Assembly: GCF_024502345.1 (NCBI RefSeq)
Contig: NZ_JALDNN010000001.1
Strand: one strand, 5' to 3'
DNA from: Escherichia coli
Lineage (GTDB): Bacteria > Pseudomonadota > Gammaproteobacteria > Enterobacterales > Enterobacteriaceae
DNA length: 64,000 nt
The notes below the pieces were generated by a model. The model was not told where the DNA came from, made no database searches, and was given only the letters and a program-made list of their open reading frames with translations. Position numbers and translations under genes: made by a program. Within the stretch, counting starts at the first letter, position 1; each line of letters begins with the position of its first letter. Below are positions 9,349 through 49,132 of this stretch, piece by piece.

Positions 9349-9843
9349 TTATGAACAACTGTCCATGATTTCGTTTAAGAATGAAGAGAAATCACTAAAC
9401 GAACTGAATATATTTTCTGTGCCAATATTATCTCTAATTTCAAAAAAGTTACTTTTAATGTCATAAGTAAATATTGAAATGCTATCATCCCCGATCACTA
9501 ACCGTTCTTGTAGATCAGGGTTTATGAAATCATCATTATTTCTATAAAATTCATTTACGGCAAAAAGGTTTTTAACTGAAGGTTCTGGAATCGAGAGGCT
9601 AAATAATCGTAATCCATTAACTTCGAATCCATCCATTGCTCTTAAAAAAGTAAGATAATCAGGTTGATTCTTAAAAAGAATACTAACTTCATTACATAAC
9701 TTCTCCAGGCAATTAGTTGAATTAGAATTAAATTCTATTTGGATTATACTTTCAATAAATGATTCCTTGAGCGGAGCTTCAAATGGATAGTCTAAATCAT
9801 TCATCATTTTTATTAATTTATTTATTTGGGTTTTAGTCATCAT
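9349..9843 (-). CDS. yrhA: Putative immunity protein for the upstream Hcp-nuclease toxin (YrhA-like, apparently intact)
   Basis: 164-aa AT-rich ORF immediately downstream of the toxin gene, with ATGA start/stop overlap (9840-9843); position typical of a toxin-immunity pair. Function inferred from context only. Confidence 0.6.
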   Translation of the reverse strand: MMTKTQINKLIKMMNDLDYPFEAPLKESFIESIIQIEFNSNSTNCLEKLCNEVSILFKNQPDYLTFLRAMDGFEVNGLRLFSLSIPEPSVKNLFAVNEFYRNNDDFINPDLQERLVIGDDSISIFTYDIKSNFFEIRDNIGTENIFSSFSDFSSFLNEIMDSCS

Positions 9844-11860: not shown

Positions 11861-11950
11861 GCGATCAGGAAGACCCTCGCGGAGAACCTGAAAGCACGAC
11901 ATTGCTCACATTGCTTCCAGTATTACTTAGCCAGCCGGGTGCTGGCTTTT
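11861..11950 (+). ncRNA. ryhB: RyhB small RNA (Fur-repressed, iron-sparing response)
   Basis: The 90 nt gcgatcaggaagaccctcgcggagaacctgaaagcacgacattgctcacattgcttccagtattacttagccagccgggtgctggctttt match RyhB as I recall it, ending in a Rho-independent terminator (gccagccgggtgctggc + T9). Lies between yhhY and yhhX as in K-12. Confidence 0.9.
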
Positions 11951-12071
11951 TTTTTGATCTTTCGTTCTCAATTTATCCACGGGAGTGCTTGTGTTCGTTA
12001 TGCGCACTCCAGTAGGAACCACGTCCGCTTTGCGCTAAGGTGTAAATAACCACCTTAAAAAGGACGAAATC

Positions 12072-28858: not shown

Positions 28859-30376
28859 ATGGAAAGAATAATGCAAAACAGAAAATGGATTTTGTCCTCG
28901 CTGGTAATGACTTTTTTCGGCATCCCCATACTGACGCAATTTTTGGCGGCGGTTGTTGCTATGCTGGGTGTCGGACTTGCCGGTATTATTGAAGTTTGTA
29001 ATATCCTTATCACGCCAACAAGTTACCTTCTGCTCAACATTTTTATGCTGGCGCTGGGCGCATTAATGCTATTTTTCTCGGGGCGAGTATGGGCAGGCGA
29101 TAGTGCACCAGAAAAAAGAGAAATAGCCGTCTGGCGACAATGTCTTTTTTTAGTACCCGGTTTATTAATCCTGGTTGGCTGGATAATCGCGCTGCATCTG
29201 GCAGATTATCAATTTCACCAGATGGGATCGGGTTGGTTGGCTGATCTTATGCTCCCCTGGCTGGGCGTTTTGTTAGTCTCAGTAGTCGGAGGTGAGTACT
29301 GGTGGATAGTCATTATACCCGTTGGCGCGCATATCAGTTTTTCGCTGGGGTACGGCCGGCCAACCAGACATCCTTTAACCGGTACATCCGGGCTACGTTG
29401 CCGTAATTCCCTCCTGTTTATCCTTCTCATGCTTGGTTTTGTCGCTGGTTATCAGGGTTATTTATATAAACAGCTCAATCCCGGCGTCGGTGTGCGCGAA
29501 AATATTGATACCTGGGCCTGGCGACCCGATAAACTCAATAATCAACTGACACCACTGCGTGGTAAACCGCAAATTCAGTTTACGCAAAACTGGCCGCGAC
29601 TCGATGGTGCTACGGCGGCGTACCCAATTTATGCCTCTGCATTTTATGCTTTAAGCGTTATACCGGAAGATTTTCACACCAGGGAATATCTGGAGAGCTC
29701 TCGTACCCCCGATGCGTATAACAGGATTGTTAAAGGTGATGCTGATAGTATTTTTGTGGCGCAACCTTCCGGTGGGCAGAAAAAACGCGCTGAGGAATCG
29801 GGCGTTACTTTGCTGTACACGCCTTTTGCCCGTGAAGCGTTTGTTTTCATCGTCAATGCGGATAATCCGGTTAATTCCCTGACTGAACAACAGGTGCGTG
29901 ACATCTTCAGTGGTGCAATTACCAACTGGCGTACTGTTGGCGGTAACGATCAGGAGATCCAGACCTGGCAACGCCCGGAAGACTCTGGTAGCCAGACGGT
30001 GATGCAATCCCAGGTCATGAAAAATGTCCGCATGATCTCGCCGCAGGAAACAGAAGTGGCAAGTATGATGGAGGGAATGATTAAAGTCGTTGCCGAATAC
30101 CGTAATACAAACAACTCAATAGGTTACACCTTCCGTTATTACGCAACACAAATGAACGCCGATAAAAATATAAAACTGCTAGCGATTAACGGTATTGCAC
30201 CGACTGCCGAAAACATTCGCAACGGCAAATATCCCTATATCGTCGATGCCTTTATGGTAACGCGGGAAAATACGATGTCAGAGACACAAAAATTGTTGGA
30301 GTGGTTTTTAACGCCGCAGGGACAGAGTTTGGTGGAAGATGTAGGTTATGTCCCGATGTATAAGACGCTACCTTAA
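28859..30376 (+). CDS. Membrane-anchored protein: N-terminal polytopic domain fused to a C-terminal PstS-fold periplasmic-binding-protein-like domain; function unknown
   Basis: 505 aa. Residues 1 to about 190 contain several hydrophobic helices. The C-terminal half carries PstS-family motifs (LTEQQVRDIFSGAITNWRTVGG; RPEDSGSQ; IGYTFRYY; LLAINGIAPTAENIRNGKYPY; VGYVPMY). Alternative start ATG 28871. As I recall, K-12 keeps only a short pseudogene remnant (yzgL) at this position. Confidence 0.8.
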   Translation: MERIMQNRKWILSSLVMTFFGIPILTQFLAAVVAMLGVGLAGIIEVCNILITPTSYLLLNIFMLALGALMLFFSGRVWAGDSAPEKREIAVWRQCLFLVPGLLILVGWIIALHLADYQFHQMGSGWLADLMLPWLGVLLVSVVGGEYWWIVIIPVGAHISFSLGYGRPTRHPLTGTSGLRCRNSLLFILLMLGFVAGYQGYLYKQLNPGVGVRENIDTWAWRPDKLNNQLTPLRGKPQIQFTQNWPRLDGATAAYPIYASAFYALSVIPEDFHTREYLESSRTPDAYNRIVKGDADSIFVAQPSGGQKKRAEESGVTLLYTPFAREAFVFIVNADNPVNSLTEQQVRDIFSGAITNWRTVGGNDQEIQTWQRPEDSGSQTVMQSQVMKNVRMISPQETEVASMMEGMIKVVAEYRNTNNSIGYTFRYYATQMNADKNIKLLAINGIAPTAENIRNGKYPYIVDAFMVTRENTMSETQKLLEWFLTPQGQSLVEDVGYVPMYKTLP

Positions 30377-30460
30377 AGCTGGATAATAAAAATGGAATTA
30401 GTTAATACATTATTTGCAAGCCTTGCCGGTACTGATCCCTTCACAGGCGTGGATATTACG

Positions 30461-30469
30461 ATTGCCAAC
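30461..30469. repeat. 9-bp target-site duplication (left copy) attgccaac
   Basis: Identical to 31527..31535, directly flanking the IS termini. Confidence 0.85.
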
Positions 30470-30487
30470 GGCTTTGTTGAATAAATC
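30470..30487. repeat. IS903 terminal inverted repeat (18 bp)
   Basis: ggctttgttgaataaatc; exact reverse complement is found at 31509..31526. Confidence 0.9.
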
Positions 30488-30525
30488 AGATTTCGGGTAA
30501 GTCTCCCCCGTAGCGGGTTGTGTTT

Positions 30526-31449
30526 TCAGGCAATACGCACGCTTTCAGGCATACCTGCTTTCGTCATTTTGTTCAGCGCTCGTACCAGGGCCATAGCCTC
30601 TGCAACCTGACCATCGTAGTCACGCAGTGTCAGTGAACCCCCGAACAGCTGTTTTACCCGGTACATCGCCGTTTCCGCTATCGAGCGACGGTTGTAATCT
30701 GTTGTCCATTTCCACCGCGCATTACTCCCGGTCATTCGCTGATTAGCCACTGCACGGTTACGGTCTGCATATTCACCGGGCCAGTAACCCGCACCTTTTC
30801 GGGGAGGGATAAGCGCGCTGATTTTCTTACGCCGCAGTTCATCGTGACATAGCCGGGTATCGTAAGCGCCATCGGCGGCGGCTGACCTGATTTTCCGGTG
30901 GGTTTGCCGGATTAACCCGGGGAAGGCCTCTGAGTCCGTAACGTTGTTCAGCGACAGGTCAGCGCAGATGATTTCATGTGTTTTACTGTCAACGGCGAGA
31001 TGCAGCTTACGCCAGATACGGCGGCGTTCCTGGCCATGCTTTTTGACTTTCCACTCGCCTTCACCGAAGACCTTCAGCCCGGTGGAATCAATTACCAGGT
31101 GTGCGATTTCACCCCGGGTGGGCGTTTTGAAACTGACATTAACCGACTTTGCCCGCCTGCTGACACAGCTGTAATCCGGGCAGCGTAGCGGAACGTTCAT
31201 CAGAGAAAAAATGGAATCAATAAAGCCCTGCGCAGCGCGCAGGGTCAGCCTGAATACGCGTTTAATGACCAGCACAGTCGTGATGGCAAGGTCAGAATAG
31301 CGCTGAGGTCTGCCTCGTGAAGAAGGTGTTGCTGACTCATACCAGGCCTGAATAGCTTCATCATCCAGCCAGAAAGTTATGGAGCCACGGTTGATGAGGG
31401 CTTTATTGTAGGTGGGCCAGTTGGTGATTTTGAACTTTTGCTTTGCCAC
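30526..31449 (-). CDS. IS903 transposase (DDE, IS5 family)
   Basis: ORF track 30526..31494 (TTG); probable GTG start at 31449 giving 307 aa beginning MAKQKFKITNWPTYNKALINRGS..., which matches my recollection of the IS903 transposase; also ...LVIDSTGLKVFGEGEWKVKKHG.... Confidence 0.9.
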   Translation of the reverse strand: MAKQKFKITNWPTYNKALINRGSITFWLDDEAIQAWYESATPSSRGRPQRYSDLAITTVLVIKRVFRLTLRAAQGFIDSIFSLMNVPLRCPDYSCVSRRAKSVNVSFKTPTRGEIAHLVIDSTGLKVFGEGEWKVKKHGQERRRIWRKLHLAVDSKTHEIICADLSLNNVTDSEAFPGLIRQTHRKIRSAAADGAYDTRLCHDELRRKKISALIPPRKGAGYWPGEYADRNRAVANQRMTGSNARWKWTTDYNRRSIAETAMYRVKQLFGGSLTLRDYDGQVAEAMALVRALNKMTKAGMPESVRIA

Positions 31450-31508
31450 GGAACGGTCTGCGTTGTCGGGAAGATACGTGATCTGATCCTTCAACTCAGC
31501 AAAAGTTC

Positions 31509-31526
31509 GATTTATTCAACAAAGCC
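31509..31526. repeat. IS903 terminal inverted repeat (18 bp, other end)
   Basis: gatttattcaacaaagcc = reverse complement of 30470..30487. Confidence 0.9.
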
Positions 31527-31535
31527 ATTGCCAAC
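31527..31535. repeat. 9-bp target-site duplication (right copy) attgccaac
   Basis: Identical to 30461..30469. Confidence 0.85.
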
Positions 31536-32170
31536 TGCAAATCGGCATACTGGGATGAAGGCATTGTTCAGCAACTTATTAACCAGGCCCTGGATGAAGG
31601 GGAAAAGTTCGTCGGTGCTGACGGTCTTGAGGGATTGCTTCGATATGATGTCACATTAAATATTGGCTTAACCTCCAGCAAGGTATGGCCGGGATTTTCC
31701 CTCGATACCGCCACCATTAGCCGTCTTTGTGCCTGTGGTGCTGATTTTGGATTTGACCCCTATATCAGTGATGTACCAGATGTTCAATGTGACCTGAACA
31801 CGACAAATGACGTCACCGTACAATTTACGGCGATGCTAAATCCGGATGAGCGGGTGATAATAGCAAAGCGCCCGCTTAAAAAATGTGACTCCTGGATTGA
31901 GGATGTCTATATCTTTCAGGTCTTAAAAGATGCCTGGAAATTTCATAACAATAACAGTTTACGCGGATTTCGCGATAAGCAGGCCGAACTGAAACTCTAC
32001 ACGCGTCATTACTCAGTGGAAAATTGCGCAGAGGAAAGCTGTCGAGACTGCAATAGTTGCATTCGCCCCAGCTTTTCCCTTTCGCGTAGCGCCCTTATTC
32101 GCCTGAACGCGGCGAATGCTCGTTTTGTCTATCAACCGTTTACACGCGATCAGCGGGCGAGGGGGTAACT

Positions 32171-32938
32171 ATGCAACCCAGCCCTGCCATGCAGGCATTA
32201 ATTGAGCAGATTTATCACACCTTTCGTCGTTATCGGGTGCCGCAGAAATTTGTGGTTTGTTGTGAATATTGCCTGAGTCAGCAGGAACAAAAGGCATTAC
32301 GGAGTACATCGTTACGAGCGATCCCGTATTCCTTAATCAATGCCTGGAATAGTAGCCCAGGGCCTGATCCGCAAAATAGCGATGAGGTCCGCTATTTTCT
32401 GCCGCGTTTACTGGAATTTGTTGCACAGGGGCATTTTGACAATATTCACGTAGTTTTTTCTCTGCGCCGTATCAACCTTGCCAACAAAGAAAACTGGCGT
32501 GCGGATGAACGGGCAATTTTACAGCGATTTGCCTGCCAGTATATGACTGATTGGGTATCCGGCGATGAAGCTGTCGAATTACAGTATATGCTGGAAATGT
32601 TTTTCCGTGCCGATATCGCTCTTGCGCCATTGCTGGATGCCATTAATTCAGTTCCCGGCTTTTGGTCGACCGTTTCTCTTGCCTGTTTATTGAACAGATA
32701 TTGTGAGGATTATATCAGAGATAACCAGGACGATATCGATAACGCCATTACCACCCAAATCAATGCCTGGGCTAGAAATAATCATCCTTTACTGAAAGAA
32801 AGAGCGCGGCAAGCGATTGAGAACCCGCTAAAACAGCCCGAACCAATGACAGAATATCATGTCTGGGAAGATGACTGGATAATTGATGAGTGTTTATGCG
32901 CGATGTATGACGCATCATCCGAATCACCAGGAAAATAA
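32171..32938 (+). CDS. Third islet gene, hypothetical protein (255 aa), no recognisable motif
   Basis: ORF starts 2 nt after the stop of the preceding gene; soluble-looking; no family recognised by eye. Confidence 0.7.
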   Translation: MQPSPAMQALIEQIYHTFRRYRVPQKFVVCCEYCLSQQEQKALRSTSLRAIPYSLINAWNSSPGPDPQNSDEVRYFLPRLLEFVAQGHFDNIHVVFSLRRINLANKENWRADERAILQRFACQYMTDWVSGDEAVELQYMLEMFFRADIALAPLLDAINSVPGFWSTVSLACLLNRYCEDYIRDNQDDIDNAITTQINAWARNNHPLLKERARQAIENPLKQPEPMTEYHVWEDDWIIDECLCAMYDASSESPGK

Positions 32939-32940
32939 AA

Positions 32941-33546
32941 ATGATTAAATTCCGGCTTTATATTCCCCCTGTAATTCTCGGTTTTGTTATCGTGCCATTA
33001 TTGGTATGGCCGACGGTTATTGTCTTAGCCGTACTTATATTCACGTTAACTTTTCTGGCAGAAATAATATTCTCCTTTCCGCTCCTGGTTGTACGTATTT
33101 CTCTTCAGGAATTACAACTTGAGTTAATGGTTGAATATGCACTTTTTTTCAGTGTAATGGCTGGCATCGGTTGGCAATTCTCCCGCAGAACGCCTCCTGA
33201 ATTAAAAAACAGACTGCATTGCTGGCTGGTCTTTTCGCCGGTCTATTTCTGGTTAATTCTCTCGAATTTCATTCTTTATATTTCTCCAGAGAAATCAGCG
33301 TTGCTGGAAAATATCCGAAATTTCTTTCTGACGTTTGTCTGGCCTCCCCTGAATTTTTCCCCTTTTTGGCCGCAGCCTTGGACTGATTTTGTCGGCCCGA
33401 TTAGTGCACAGCTTGGTTTTGCATTGGGATATTATTGCCATTGGTGCAGAAAAAATAGAAACCAGAGGAAGAAGTGGGGCGATTGGGTAACGTGCTTAAG
33501 TTTGGCGATTTTAGCTCAGGGGCCGTTATTCAATTATTTACAATGA
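32941..33546 (+). CDS. Fourth islet gene, small multi-pass membrane protein (201 aa), function unknown
   Basis: ORF starts 2 nt after the stop of the third gene; several hydrophobic segments (VILGFVIVPLLVWPTVIVLAVLIFTLTFLAEIIF; WLVFSPVYFWLILSNFILYI); lowest G+C of the islet by eye. Confidence 0.7.
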   Translation: MIKFRLYIPPVILGFVIVPLLVWPTVIVLAVLIFTLTFLAEIIFSFPLLVVRISLQELQLELMVEYALFFSVMAGIGWQFSRRTPPELKNRLHCWLVFSPVYFWLILSNFILYISPEKSALLENIRNFFLTFVWPPLNFSPFWPQPWTDFVGPISAQLGFALGYYCHWCRKNRNQRKKWGDWVTCLSLAILAQGPLFNYLQ

Positions 33547-33567
33547 ATAGTCTAAGGAATCCAAATA

Positions 33568-33590
33568 GCCCGGTTGCACTTCAACCGGGC
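33568..33590. terminator. Perfect hairpin between the convergent islet operon and glpD
   Basis: Stem gcccggttg / caaccgggc (9 bp) with 5-nt loop; lies between the stop of the fourth islet gene (33546) and the glpD stop (33598); no strong U-tract. Confidence 0.45.
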
Positions 33591-33597
33591 ATCATCC

Positions 33598-41326: not shown

Positions 41327-44038
<2,712 letters not shown>

Positions 44039-44530
44039 TCACTTCACTGTGGAAAATGAGGAAATATTATTTTTTTTTGCGCTTCGTAATTAATGGTTAT
44101 AAGGTCGGCCAGAAACCTTTCTAATGCAAGCGATGACGTTTTTTTATGTGTCTGAATTTGCACTGTGTCACAATTCCAAATCTTTATTAACAACTCACCT
44201 AAAACGACGCTGATCCAGCGTGAATACTGGTTTCCCTTATGTTCATCAGATTCATTTAAGCAAGGGTTTCTTCTTCATTCCTGATGAAAGTGCCATCTAT
44301 AAAGATGATCTTAATAAATCTATTAAGAATGAGATGGAGCACACTGGATATTTTACTTGTGAAACTGTTTCACTCCTTTACTTAATTTATAGAGTTACCT
44401 TCCGCTTTTTGAAAATACGCAACGGCCATTTTTTGCACTTAGATACAGATTTTCTGCGCTGTATTGCATTGATTTGCTGCTAATCCTGTGGTTTGCACTA
44501 GCTTTAAGTGGTTGAGATCACATTTCCTTG

Positions 44531-44576
44531 CTCATCCCCGCAACTCCTCCCTGCCTAATCCCCCGCAGGATGAGGA
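44531..44576 (+). promoter_or_regulatory. malPQ promoter region with MalT boxes
   Basis: Three copies of the MalT box GGA(T/G)GA in the two orientations: ctcatccccg, ctcctccc and ggatgagga (44568-44576), about 70-110 bp upstream of the malP ATG. Confidence 0.55.
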
Positions 44577-44620
44577 AGGTCAACATCGAGCCTGGCAAAC
44601 TAGCGATAACGTTGTGTTGA

Positions 44621-47038
<2,418 letters not shown>

Positions 47039-47047
47039 GGAAGCTCG

Positions 47048-49132
47048 ATGGAAAGCAAACGTCTGGATAATGCCGCGCTGGCGGCGGGGATTAGCCCCAA
47101 TTACATCAATGCCCACGGTAAACCGCAGTCGATTAGCGCCGAAACCAAACGGCGTTTGCTTGACGCGATGCATCAACGTACCGCCACGAAAGTGGCGGTA
47201 ACGCCAGTCCCGAATGTCATGGTTTATACCAGCGGCAAAAAAATGCCGATGGTGGTGGAGGGCAGCGGCGAATATAGCTGGCTGCTGACCACCGAAGAAG
47301 GAACACAGTACAAAGGCCATGTAACGGGGGGCAAAGCGTTCAATCTACCGACGAAGTTGCCGGAAGGTTATCACACGCTGACACTCACCCAGGACGACCA
47401 GCGCGCGCATTGCCGGGTGATTGTCGCCCCGAAACGCTGTTACGAACCGCAGGCGTTGCTGAATAAACAAAAGCTGTGGGGTGCCTGCGTTCAGCTTTAT
47501 ACGCTGCGATCGGAAAAAAACTGGGGTATTGGGGATTTTGGCGATCTCAAAGCGATGCTGGTGGATGTGGCAAAACGTGGCGGGTCGTTCATCGGCCTGA
47601 ACCCGATTCATGCGCTCTATCCGGCAAATCCGGAGAGTGCCAGCCCATACAGCCCGTCTTCTCGCCGTTGGCTGAATGTGATTTATATCGACGTTAACGC
47701 CGTTGAAGATTTCCATCTTAGCGAAGAGGCTCAGGCCTGGTGGCAGTTGCCGACCACGCAACAGACGCTGCAACAGGCGCGCGATGCCGACTGGGTCGAT
47801 TACTCCACGGTTACCGCCCTAAAAATGACAGCATTACGAATGGCGTGGAAAGGTTTCGCGCAACGTGATGATGAGCAGATGGCCGCGTTTCGCCAGTTTG
47901 TTGCAGAGCAGGGCGACAGCCTGTTCTGGCAGGCAGCCTTTGATGCGCTACATGCCCAGCAAGTGAAAGAGGACGAAATGCGCTGGGGCTGGCCTGCATG
48001 GCCAGAGATGTATCAGAACGTGGATTCACCAGAAGTGCGTCAGTTCTGCGAAGAACATCGTAATGACGTCGATTTTTATCTCTGGTTGCAGTGGCTGGCT
48101 TACAGCCAGTTTGCCGCCTGCTGGGAGATAAGCCAGGGCTATGAAATGCCGATTGGCTTGTATCGTGATCTGGCGGTTGGCGTAGCGGAAGGTGGGGCGG
48201 AAACCTGGTGTGACCGTGAACTATATTGCCTGAAAGCGTCGGTTGGCGCGCCGCCGGATATCCTCGGCCCGTTGGGGCAGAACTGGGGATTACCGCCAAT
48301 GGACCCGCATATCATCACCGCGCGTGCCTATGAACCGTTTATCGAGCTGTTGCGTGCCAATATGCAAAACTGCGGCGCATTACGAATTGACCATGTGATG
48401 TCGATGCTGCGTTTGTGGTGGATACCGTATGGCGAGACGGCAGATCAGGGCGCGTATGTTCACTATCCGGTGGATGATCTGCTCTCGATTCTGGCACTCG
48501 AAAGTAAACGTCATCGCTGTATGGTGATTGGTGAAGATCTCGGTACCGTACCGGTAGAGATTGTCGGTAAGCTGCGCAGCAGCGGTGTGTACTCCTACAA
48601 AGTGCTCTATTTCGAAAACGACCACGAGAAGACGTTCCGTGCACCGAAAGCGTATCCGGAGCAGTCGATGGCGGTTGCGGCGACACATGACCTGCCTACG
48701 CTACGCGGCTACTGGGAGAGCGGGGATCTAACGCTGGGCAAAACCCTGGGGCTGTATCCGGATGAAGTGGTACTGCGCGGTCTGTATCAGGATCGCGAAC
48801 TGGCGAAGCAAGGGCTGCTGGATGCACTGCATAAATATGGTTGTCTGCCAAAACGTGCCGGGCATAAGGCATCGTTGATGTCGATGACGCCGACGCTGAA
48901 CCGTGGTTTGCAGCGCTACATTGCCGACAGTAACAGTGCTCTGTTAGGACTACAGCCGGAAGACTGGCTGGATATGGCCGAACCGGTGAATATTCCTGGC
49001 ACCAGTTACCAGTATAAAAACTGGCGACGCAAGCTTTCCGCAACGCTTGAGACGATGTTTGCCGATGATGGCGTGAACAAGTTGCTGAAGGATTTGGACA
49101 GACGGCGCAGAGCTGCAGCGAAGAAGAAGTAG
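47048..49132 (+). CDS. malQ: 4-alpha-glucanotransferase (amylomaltase)
   Basis: 694-aa ORF immediately after malP. Confidence 0.95.
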   Translation: MESKRLDNAALAAGISPNYINAHGKPQSISAETKRRLLDAMHQRTATKVAVTPVPNVMVYTSGKKMPMVVEGSGEYSWLLTTEEGTQYKGHVTGGKAFNLPTKLPEGYHTLTLTQDDQRAHCRVIVAPKRCYEPQALLNKQKLWGACVQLYTLRSEKNWGIGDFGDLKAMLVDVAKRGGSFIGLNPIHALYPANPESASPYSPSSRRWLNVIYIDVNAVEDFHLSEEAQAWWQLPTTQQTLQQARDADWVDYSTVTALKMTALRMAWKGFAQRDDEQMAAFRQFVAEQGDSLFWQAAFDALHAQQVKEDEMRWGWPAWPEMYQNVDSPEVRQFCEEHRNDVDFYLWLQWLAYSQFAACWEISQGYEMPIGLYRDLAVGVAEGGAETWCDRELYCLKASVGAPPDILGPLGQNWGLPPMDPHIITARAYEPFIELLRANMQNCGALRIDHVMSMLRLWWIPYGETADQGAYVHYPVDDLLSILALESKRHRCMVIGEDLGTVPVEIVGKLRSSGVYSYKVLYFENDHEKTFRAPKAYPEQSMAVAATHDLPTLRGYWESGDLTLGKTLGLYPDEVVLRGLYQDRELAKQGLLDALHKYGCLPKRAGHKASLMSMTPTLNRGLQRYIADSNSALLGLQPEDWLDMAEPVNIPGTSYQYKNWRRKLSATLETMFADDGVNKLLKDLDRRRRAAAKKK

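What the first reader, a model, noticed from the sequence alone, without database searches (positions are those of the whole stretch)
44531..44576. MalT boxes upstream of malPQ
Three GGA(T/G)GA-type hexamers in mixed orientation precede malP, matching the known MalT-dependent promoter layout.
Basis: partly seen in the sequence, partly recalled or inferred. Interest (0 to 1): 0.2.

Follow-up and report, generated by a model that had tools for sequence, protein, structure and literature searches.

The report
MalT activator boxes of malPQ promoter
The three short motifs are real and are the well-known binding sites through which the maltose activator MalT switches on the E. coli malPQ operon, so this is an ordinary, already explained feature.

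Summary
GGA(T/G)GA hexamers lie at 44532-44537 (-), 44545-44550 (-) and 44568-44573 (+), 72-113 bp upstream of the malP start codon (44645). The window is E. coli chromosome. This stretch is identical to K-12 MG1655, and malT (901 aa) is divergently transcribed next door.

The cluster is not chance. It is the only place in the 64 kb where two such hexamers lie within 30 bp. The exact layout occurred in 1 of 2000 shuffles.

In 80 other Enterobacteriaceae species the 13-bp and 23-bp spacings are invariant. The boxes are conservation islands (about 93% identity against 38% in the upstream flank). The hexamers vary mainly at the T/G position that the published consensus leaves degenerate.

A conserved -10-like hexamer (44596-44601) puts the proximal box at about -37.5, where a -35 element is missing. 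The two distal boxes are a direct repeat with a 3-bp gap. K-12 malKp has the same layout.

This is the classic malPp MalT-dependent promoter: already known, low interest. The original footprint papers were not available, so exact agreement with the footprint rests on my recollection plus a quoted consensus.

Noticed in passing: a conserved CRP-like site (44505-44526) and a conserved sub-consensus fourth box (44554-44563).

The parts
44530..44539 (-). Distal MalT box A: GGGGATGAGC on the - strand (hexamer 44532-44537). Centre at about -73.5 from the inferred start site.
   Evidence: It scores 9/10 against the consensus. An exact hexamer is present in 70 of 81 sequences; the other 11 have GGAGTA.
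44543..44552 (-). Distal MalT box B: AGGGAGGAGT on the - strand (hexamer 44545-44550). It forms a direct repeat with box A, with a 3-bp gap between the 10-mers. Centre at about -60.5.
   Evidence: The hexamer is present in 81 of 81 sequences and always 13 bp from box A.
44566..44575 (+). Proximal MalT box C: CAGGATGAGG on the + strand (hexamer 44568-44573). It is inverted relative to A and B and abuts the position where a -35 hexamer would lie. Centre at about -37.5.
   Evidence: Present in 80 of 81 sequences, always 23 bp from box B. GGATGA occurs in 48 and GGAGGA in 32.
44596..44601 (+). Inferred -10 hexamer CAAACT of malPp. The inferred transcription start is near 44608 (K-12 coordinate about 3552510).
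   Evidence: CA[ACT]ACT lies at an invariant 51 bp from the start of box B in 81 of 81 sequences. The generic sigma-70 scan finds no -35/-10 pair here. The start site is inferred, not measured.
44645..47038 (+). malP, maltodextrin phosphorylase; first gene of the regulated operon.
47048..49132 (+). malQ, 4-alpha-glucanotransferase (amylomaltase); second gene of the operon.
41327..44032 (-). malT, the activator that reads the boxes; intact at 901 aa and divergently transcribed.
44554..44563 (-). Fourth, sub-consensus MalT-box-like 10-mer GGGGATTAGG (hexamer GGATTA), lying between boxes B and C. Status uncertain.
   Evidence: TAATCC lies at box B + 11 in 72 of 81 sequences. No binding data were available.
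44505..44526 (.). Conserved CRP-like site ttAAGTGGttgagaTCACAttt just upstream of box A, centred at about -92.5. Status uncertain.
   Evidence: GTG-N7-TCACA is present in 78 of 81 sequences and TCACA in 81 of 81, with a variable spacer. On its own in the window it is not significant: 1 match against about 2 expected.

Best explanation
These are the three MalT boxes of malPp, the MalT-dependent promoter of the E. coli malPQ operon.

MalT bound to ATP and its inducer maltotriose forms multimers. The multimer binds cooperatively to the two distal boxes (a direct repeat, 44530-44539 and 44543-44552, - strand) and to the inverted proximal box (44566-44575, + strand). The proximal box sits where a -35 element is lacking, centred at about -37.5. 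From there MalT recruits RNA polymerase to the weak core promoter (-10 CAAACT at 44596-44601, start near 44608). Maltodextrin phosphorylase and amylomaltase are therefore made only when maltodextrins are present.

Shown here: the motifs, their layout, their non-random occurrence, their strict conservation, the missing -35, and the gene identities. Inferred: the start site. Taken from the literature and my own knowledge: MalT binding and activation.
For: Motifs and coordinates.

Gene identities: malT, malP and malQ by NCBIfam equivalogs and RefSeq annotation. The stretch 44477-44644 is identical to K-12 MG1655, and the locus is present in 5423 of 5426 complete E. coli genomes.

Statistics: this is the only hexamer cluster in 64 kb, and the layout occurred in 1 of 2000 shuffles.

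Phylogenetic footprint over 80 species with MalP 83-99% identical:
- Hexamer spacings of 13 and 23 bp are invariant.
- Mean identity to the window is 0.92-0.94 in the boxes, against 0.38 upstream and 0.53-0.62 downstream.
- Within the hexamers, variation is almost only T<->G at the degenerate consensus position (box C: 48 GGATGA, 32 GGAGGA).
- The -10-like hexamer lies at a fixed distance in 81 of 81 sequences.

No sigma-70-like -35/-10 pair is found, as expected for an activator-dependent promoter. K-12 malKp shows the same design: two same-strand boxes 13 bp apart followed by an inverted proximal box.

Literature: the consensus GGA(T/G)GA / GGGGA(T/G)GAGG and its overlap with the -35 region are quoted in PMC7567727. 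Cooperative binding of multimerised MalT to MalT boxes and recruitment of RNA polymerase are stated in PMC4381067. The engineered four-site derivative malPp800 is used as a MalT-binding fragment in PMC10427625.
Against: No direct binding or transcription data could be consulted or produced here. The transcription start is inferred from a conserved -10-like hexamer. The positions -37.5, -60.5 and -73.5 therefore depend on that inference and on my memory of the literature.

Boxes B and C match only 8 of 10 positions of the extended consensus. Box A is degenerate (GGAGTA) in 11 of 81 species, so it may contribute less than the others.
Confidence: 0.95

Rival explanations
1. The hexamers are chance matches in a pyrimidine/purine-rich stretch of the intergenic region and have no regulatory role.
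For: A 6-mer with one degenerate position is common: 67 copies in the window. Three or more within 42 bp somewhere in 64 kb occurs in 3.7% of shuffles.
Against: The exact layout occurred in 1 of 2000 shuffles. The spacings are invariant and box identity is about 93% across 80 species, while the flanks fall to 38%. The location is directly upstream of a MalT-regulon operon and next to malT.
Confidence: 0.01
2. The - strand GGAGGA (44545-44550) is a Shine-Dalgarno sequence for a small divergent ORF that starts at the ATG inside box A.
For: Read from the sequence: on the - strand, GGAGGA is followed about 10 nt later by ATG, giving ATG AGC AAG GAA ATG TGA.
Against: That ORF has only 5 codons. The ATG is lost in the 11 species where box A is GGAGTA. 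The conservation pattern follows the box consensus rather than codons. No promoter-like site faces that way.
Confidence: 0.01
3. The promoter takes more inputs than the three boxes. The conserved CRP-like site (44505-44526) and the conserved sub-consensus fourth box (44554-44563) would also be functional. The reader's three-box description would then be correct but incomplete.
For: GTG-N7-TCACA is conserved in 78 of 81 species with a variable spacer, the pattern expected of a genuine dimer site. Its centre at about -92.5 is a helical position compatible with class I CRP activation (own knowledge). TAATCC (reverse complement GGATTA; 10-mer GGGGATTAGG, 9/10 to the consensus) is conserved in 72 of 81 species.
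Against: From my own knowledge, malPQ is described as depending on CRP only indirectly, through malT, and upstream deletions of malPp were reported as dispensable. I could not check either point. The CRP-like left half is weak (AGTGG). In the window the pattern occurs no more often than chance. Conservation of the B-C spacer could reflect DNA-shape or alpha-CTD constraints rather than a fourth MalT protomer.
Confidence: 0.3

Closest known systems
malPp, the MalT-dependent promoter of the E. coli K-12 malPQ operon (Raibaud, Richet, Danot and co-workers)
   Same: It is the same locus. The sequence from 44477 to the malP ATG is identical to MG1655. It has three boxes: two distal in direct repeat and one proximal and inverted. 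In K-12 coordinates the hexamers are at 3552581-86, 3552568-73 and 3552545-50.
   Different: Nothing in the promoter differs. Further upstream in the malT-malP spacer this strain has three SNPs and one extra T relative to K-12.
malKp / malEp divergent MalT- and CRP-dependent promoters of E. coli
   Same: The box consensus is the same. At malKp there are again two same-strand boxes 13 bp apart followed by an inverted proximal box.
   Different: At malKp the distance from the distal repeat to the proximal box is 27 bp rather than 23 bp. malKp also has overlapping registers 3 bp apart. From my own knowledge, it needs CRP sites between the MalT sites, whereas malPp is regarded as directly CRP-independent.
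Klebsiella pneumoniae pulAp and the engineered malPp800
   Same: Both are MalT-dependent promoters built from the same boxes (PMC10427625).
   Different: They carry four MalT sites and bind MalT with higher affinity. The natural promoter here has three consensus hexamers plus one sub-consensus GGATTA.

Membership tests
MalT-dependent promoter (maltose regulon) | Copies of the asymmetric MalT box, core 5'-GGA(T/G)GA-3' (extended form GGGGA(T/G)GAGG) | tested here: met
   There are three exact core hexamers, and the 10-mers score 9/10, 8/10 and 8/10. The consensus is as quoted in PMC7567727.
MalT-dependent promoter (maltose regulon) | [quoted passage not shown] 1991; spacing recalled from memory) | tested here: met
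   The 10-mers at 44530-44539 and 44543-44552 lie on the same strand with a 3-bp gap. The 13-bp hexamer spacing is invariant in every species that has both hexamers. The same 13-bp repeat occurs at K-12 malKp.
MalT-dependent promoter (maltose regulon) | A proximal box next to or overlapping the -35 region (centre about -37.5 or -38.5), reading 5'-GGA(T/G)GA-3' towards the start site | tested here: inconclusive
   The orientation is met. The position is met only if the start site is near 44608, which I infer from the conserved CA[ACT]ACT hexamer 22 bp downstream of the box. No measured start site was available.
MalT-dependent promoter (maltose regulon) | A weak core promoter lacking a recognisable -35 hexamer | tested here: met
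   The sigma-70 scan finds no -35/-10 pair upstream of malP. The -35 position reads AGGAAG, 2/6 to TTGACA.
MalT-dependent promoter (maltose regulon) | The controlled genes belong to maltodextrin metabolism, and malT is present in the genome | tested here: met
   malP, malQ and an intact 901-aa malT were identified by NCBIfam equivalogs.
MalT-dependent promoter (maltose regulon) | MalT (with ATP and maltotriose) physically protects the boxes and is required for transcription | not testable with these tools
   This is known from the literature for this exact K-12 sequence (own knowledge). The footprint papers are not held.
CRP (cAMP receptor protein) binding site, for the element noticed at 44505-44526 | A 22-bp site with TGTGA-N6-TCACA half-sites | tested here: inconclusive
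   The right half is perfect and the left half is AGTGG; overall 16 of 22 positions match the consensus. The half-sites are conserved in 78 of 81 species. There are no binding data, and the pattern is not enriched in the window.

The most novel reading that the evidence does not exclude
malPp may take more inputs than the textbook three MalT boxes. The candidates are two elements conserved across the Enterobacteriaceae species sampled: a CRP-like site at about -92.5 (44505-44526) and a sub-consensus fourth MalT box at about -49.5 (44554-44563). If functional, they would give malPQ a direct cAMP-CRP input or a low-affinity fourth MalT protomer, in a promoter usually described as CRP-independent.
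Probability: 0.25. Interest if true: 0.3.

Novelty: already known. Interest (0 to 1): 0.08.

Why it matters
It matters little for discovery. This is one of the classic, experimentally dissected activator-dependent promoters of E. coli.

The comparative data give a clean illustration that the box spacing (13 and 23 bp) and the distance to the -10 hexamer are under strict constraint across the family. They also flag two further conserved elements, a CRP-like site and a GGATTA box. A specialist could test whether these refine the model of malPp.

Tried and rejected
Literature:
- I tried to read the primary and review literature with the malPp footprint: Boos & Shuman 1998 (PMC98911), Danot & Raibaud 1993 (PMC47909 and its DOI), Richet & Raibaud 1989 (PMC400900), Marquenet & Richet 2010 (PMC2944548) and Danot 2001 (PMC14604). 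None is held.
- Full-text searches for 'malPp', 'MalT box', MalT plus CRP plus malP, and the literal promoter and CRP-like sequences gave nothing with site coordinates.
- The supplement of PMC10427625 does not give the malPp800 sequence.

Annotation: the RefSeq annotation of MG1655 carries no regulatory-site features for this region.

Other checks:
- Rfam finds no RNA family in the malT-malP spacer.
- The generic promoter scan finds nothing for malP, which is expected.
- A first CRP pattern with the wrong spacing (N8) missed the site and instead hit a palindrome at 44358-44373. I corrected it to N7.
- I rejected the idea that the - strand GGAGGA...ATG is a real translation start. The ORF has 5 codons and its ATG is not conserved.

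Full report
**Observation.** The sequence 44530-44575 reads gCTCATCCCCgcaaCTCCTCCCtgcctaatcccccgcaGGATGAGG. An exact search for GGAKGA on both strands finds 44532-44537 (-, GGATGA), 44545-44550 (-, GGAGGA) and 44568-44573 (+, GGATGA). Two are on the - strand as a direct repeat. One is on the + strand and points towards the downstream gene. Against the extended consensus GGGGA(T/G)GAGG, the three 10-mers are GGGGATGAGC (9/10), AGGGAGGAGT (8/10) and CAGGATGAGG (8/10).

**Context.** The ORF starting at 44645 (797 aa) is maltodextrin phosphorylase MalP. The next (47048-49132) is amylomaltase MalQ. The divergent 901-aa ORF at 41327-44032 (-) is MalT. All three match NCBIfam equivalog models far above their cut-offs, and near-identical RefSeq records annotate them the same way.

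The window is E. coli chromosome: 5423 of 5426 complete genomes carry this stretch. The window is collinear, in reverse, with K-12 MG1655 3,533,032-3,593,659. From 44477 to the malP ATG the sequence is identical to MG1655. The hexamers correspond to K-12 3552581-86, 3552568-73 and 3552545-50.

**Is it more than chance?** The hexamer is common: 67 copies in 64 kb, against 49.6 +/- 6.8 in shuffles. However, this is the only place in the window where even two copies lie within 30 bp of each other. In 2000 dinucleotide-preserving shuffles, a cluster of three or more within 42 bp appeared somewhere in 73. The specific layout (two same-strand hexamers 13 bp apart plus an inverted one 10-30 bp further on) appeared in 1.

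**Phylogenetic footprint.** I fetched malP loci from 80 other Enterobacteriaceae species. They include Escherichia, Salmonella, Citrobacter, Enterobacter, Klebsiella, Raoultella, Kluyvera, Buttiauxella, Cedecea, Atlantibacter, Franconibacter and Kosakonia, with MalP 83-99% identical. I analysed the 230 bp upstream of each start codon.
- **Box presence.** Box B is present in 81 of 81 sequences and box C in 80 of 81. Box A is present in 70 of 81; the other 11 have GGAGTA.
- **Spacing.** The A-B spacing is always 13 bp and the B-C spacing always 23 bp.
- **Conservation.** Mean identity to the window is 0.93, 0.94 and 0.92 in the three 10-mers. It is 0.38 in the 115 bp upstream and 0.53-0.62 downstream.
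- **Variation within the hexamers.** Apart from the GGAGTA variant of box A, it is almost entirely T<->G at the fourth position. Box C is GGATGA in 48 sequences and GGAGGA in 32. Box B is GGAGGA in 78 and GGATGA in 3. That is the one position the published consensus leaves degenerate.
- **Core promoter.** A -10-like hexamer CA(A/C/T)ACT (44596-44601 here, CAAACT) lies exactly 51 bp after the start of box B in 81 of 81 sequences.

**Anatomy and mechanism.** With the -10 hexamer at 44596-44601, the start site should be near 44608 (K-12 about 3552510). This is an inference. The proximal 10-mer is then centred at -37.5, box B at -60.5 and box A at -73.5. The place where a -35 hexamer would lie reads AGGAAG (2/6). 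The generic sigma-70 scan finds no promoter upstream of malP. Both points are expected for a promoter that depends entirely on an activator.

The two distal 10-mers are separated by 3 bp and form a direct repeat. The same design is visible at K-12 malKp: two same-strand boxes 13 bp apart, then an inverted proximal box. At malS an inverted pair lies 24 bp apart.

The literature available here gives three relevant statements:
- PMC7567727 quotes the consensus, GGA(T/G)GA bordered by GG on both sides, and its overlap with the -35 region.
- PMC4381067 states that maltotriose-induced multimerisation of MalT allows cooperative binding to the MalT boxes and recruitment of RNA polymerase, probably through the DNA-binding domain.
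- PMC10427625 uses malPp800, a derivative engineered to carry four MalT sites, as a high-affinity MalT-binding fragment.

My own recollection of Raibaud, Vidal-Ingigliardi, Danot and Richet's work is that wild-type malPp has three MalT sites at -37.5, -60.5 and -73.5, and that the proximal site works in only one orientation. This fits exactly. I could not open those papers, so that agreement is a lead, not a test.

**Rivals.**
- **Chance.** This is excluded by the conservation data.
- **A small divergent ORF.** A reading of the - strand GGAGGA...ATG as a ribosome-binding site plus start codon gives a 5-codon ORF. Its ATG is lost in 11 species, so I reject it.
- **More than three inputs.** The only rival with some weight is that the three-box description is incomplete (see below).

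**Comparison and novelty.** This is not merely like malPp. It is malPp, identical to the K-12 sequence on which the classic experiments were done. It meets every defining feature of a MalT-dependent promoter that can be tested in silico. The position relative to a measured start site and physical MalT binding remain untested here. Novelty: already known. Interest: low.

**Noticed in passing.**
1. Immediately upstream of box A lies ttAAGTGGttgagaTCACAttt (44505-44526), which matches 16 of 22 positions of the CRP consensus. The right half-site TCACA is present in 81 of 81 species and GTG-N7-TCACA in 78 of 81, while the 6-bp spacer varies freely. Its centre would be at about -92.5 (-91.5 in Klebsiella-like genera). 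In the window alone the pattern is not enriched. From my own knowledge, malPQ is held to depend on CRP only through malT. A conserved site here is therefore mildly unexpected, or an old observation I cannot retrieve.
2. Between boxes B and C, CCTAATCCCC (44554-44563) is the reverse complement of GGGGATTAGG, 9/10 to the MalT 10-mer but with a GGATTA core. TAATCC is conserved in 72 of 81 species.
3. In Salmonella, many Citrobacter, Enterobacter, Kluyvera and others, box C is GGAGGAGGA, which gives two registers 3 bp apart. In Salmonella and some Citrobacter, box B does the same. This resembles the staggered sites at malKp.
4. Elsewhere in the window:
   - the known malTp CRP site at 44154-44175;
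   - RyhB at 11890-11954;
   - no IS1E in yrhA;
   - 4.5 kb absent from K-12 between glgP and glpD, carrying a PstS-like binding protein, an IS5-family transposase and three unannotated ORFs.

Noticed in passing
window 44505-44526: A CRP-like site, ttAAGTGGttgagaTCACAttt, lies just upstream of the distal MalT box. GTG-N7-TCACA is conserved in 78 of 81 Enterobacteriaceae malP upstream regions, with a variable spacer. The inferred centre is about -92.5 of malPp. malPp is usually described as not directly CRP-dependent (own knowledge).
   Followed up: partly
window 44554-44563 (- strand): A fourth, sub-consensus MalT-box-like 10-mer, GGGGATTAGG (core GGATTA), lies between boxes B and C. TAATCC is conserved in 72 of 81 species. 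It may be the position that is improved in the engineered four-site malPp800, but I could not check this.
   Followed up: partly
L010 and L017 (Salmonella), L008, L013-L015, L018, L021 (Citrobacter), many Enterobacter/Kluyvera loci; about 65-100 bp upstream of malP (locus position about 1400-1435): In these orthologous promoters the proximal box reads GGAGGAGGA, and in some the middle box reads TCCTCCTCC. This gives two overlapping MalT-box registers 3 bp apart, reminiscent of the staggered site sets at E. coli malKp.
   Followed up: no
window 44154-44175: gaatttgcactgtgtcacaatt is the reverse complement of AATTGTGACACAGTGCAAATTC, which I recall as the CRP site of the malT promoter. It lies about 350 bp from the CRP-like site near malPp, so the two are separate elements.
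   Followed up: no
window 44357-44374: A near-perfect palindrome, TGTGAAACTGTTTCACT, lies in the middle of the malT-malP spacer. The G at 44359 is an A in K-12, so the TGTGA half is strain-specific. The half-site spacing is N7, not the CRP N6.
   Followed up: no
window 44033-44644 (about 44070, 44300, 44359, 44477): The malT-malP spacer differs from K-12 MG1655 by one extra T in a T-run in the malT leader region (T9 against T8, about 44070-44078) and by three SNPs. None falls in the malPp elements.
   Followed up: yes
window 29089-33597: About 4.5 kb between glgP and glpD is absent from K-12, which has only the yzgL remnant there. It holds a 505-aa PBP_like_2/PstS-like binding protein (28859-30376), an IS5-family DDE transposase (30526-31494, - strand) and three ORFs with no Pfam match (31635-33546). 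No complete E. coli genome matches at least 80% of it in one piece, probably because of the IS insertion.
   Followed up: partly
window about 9454-9462: The IS1E that interrupts yrhA in K-12 MG1655 is absent here. The alignment to K-12 jumps from 3584196 to 3583427.
   Followed up: no
window 11890-11954 (+): The RyhB small RNA gene is the only Rfam family hit at gathering threshold in the window (83 bits).
   Followed up: no
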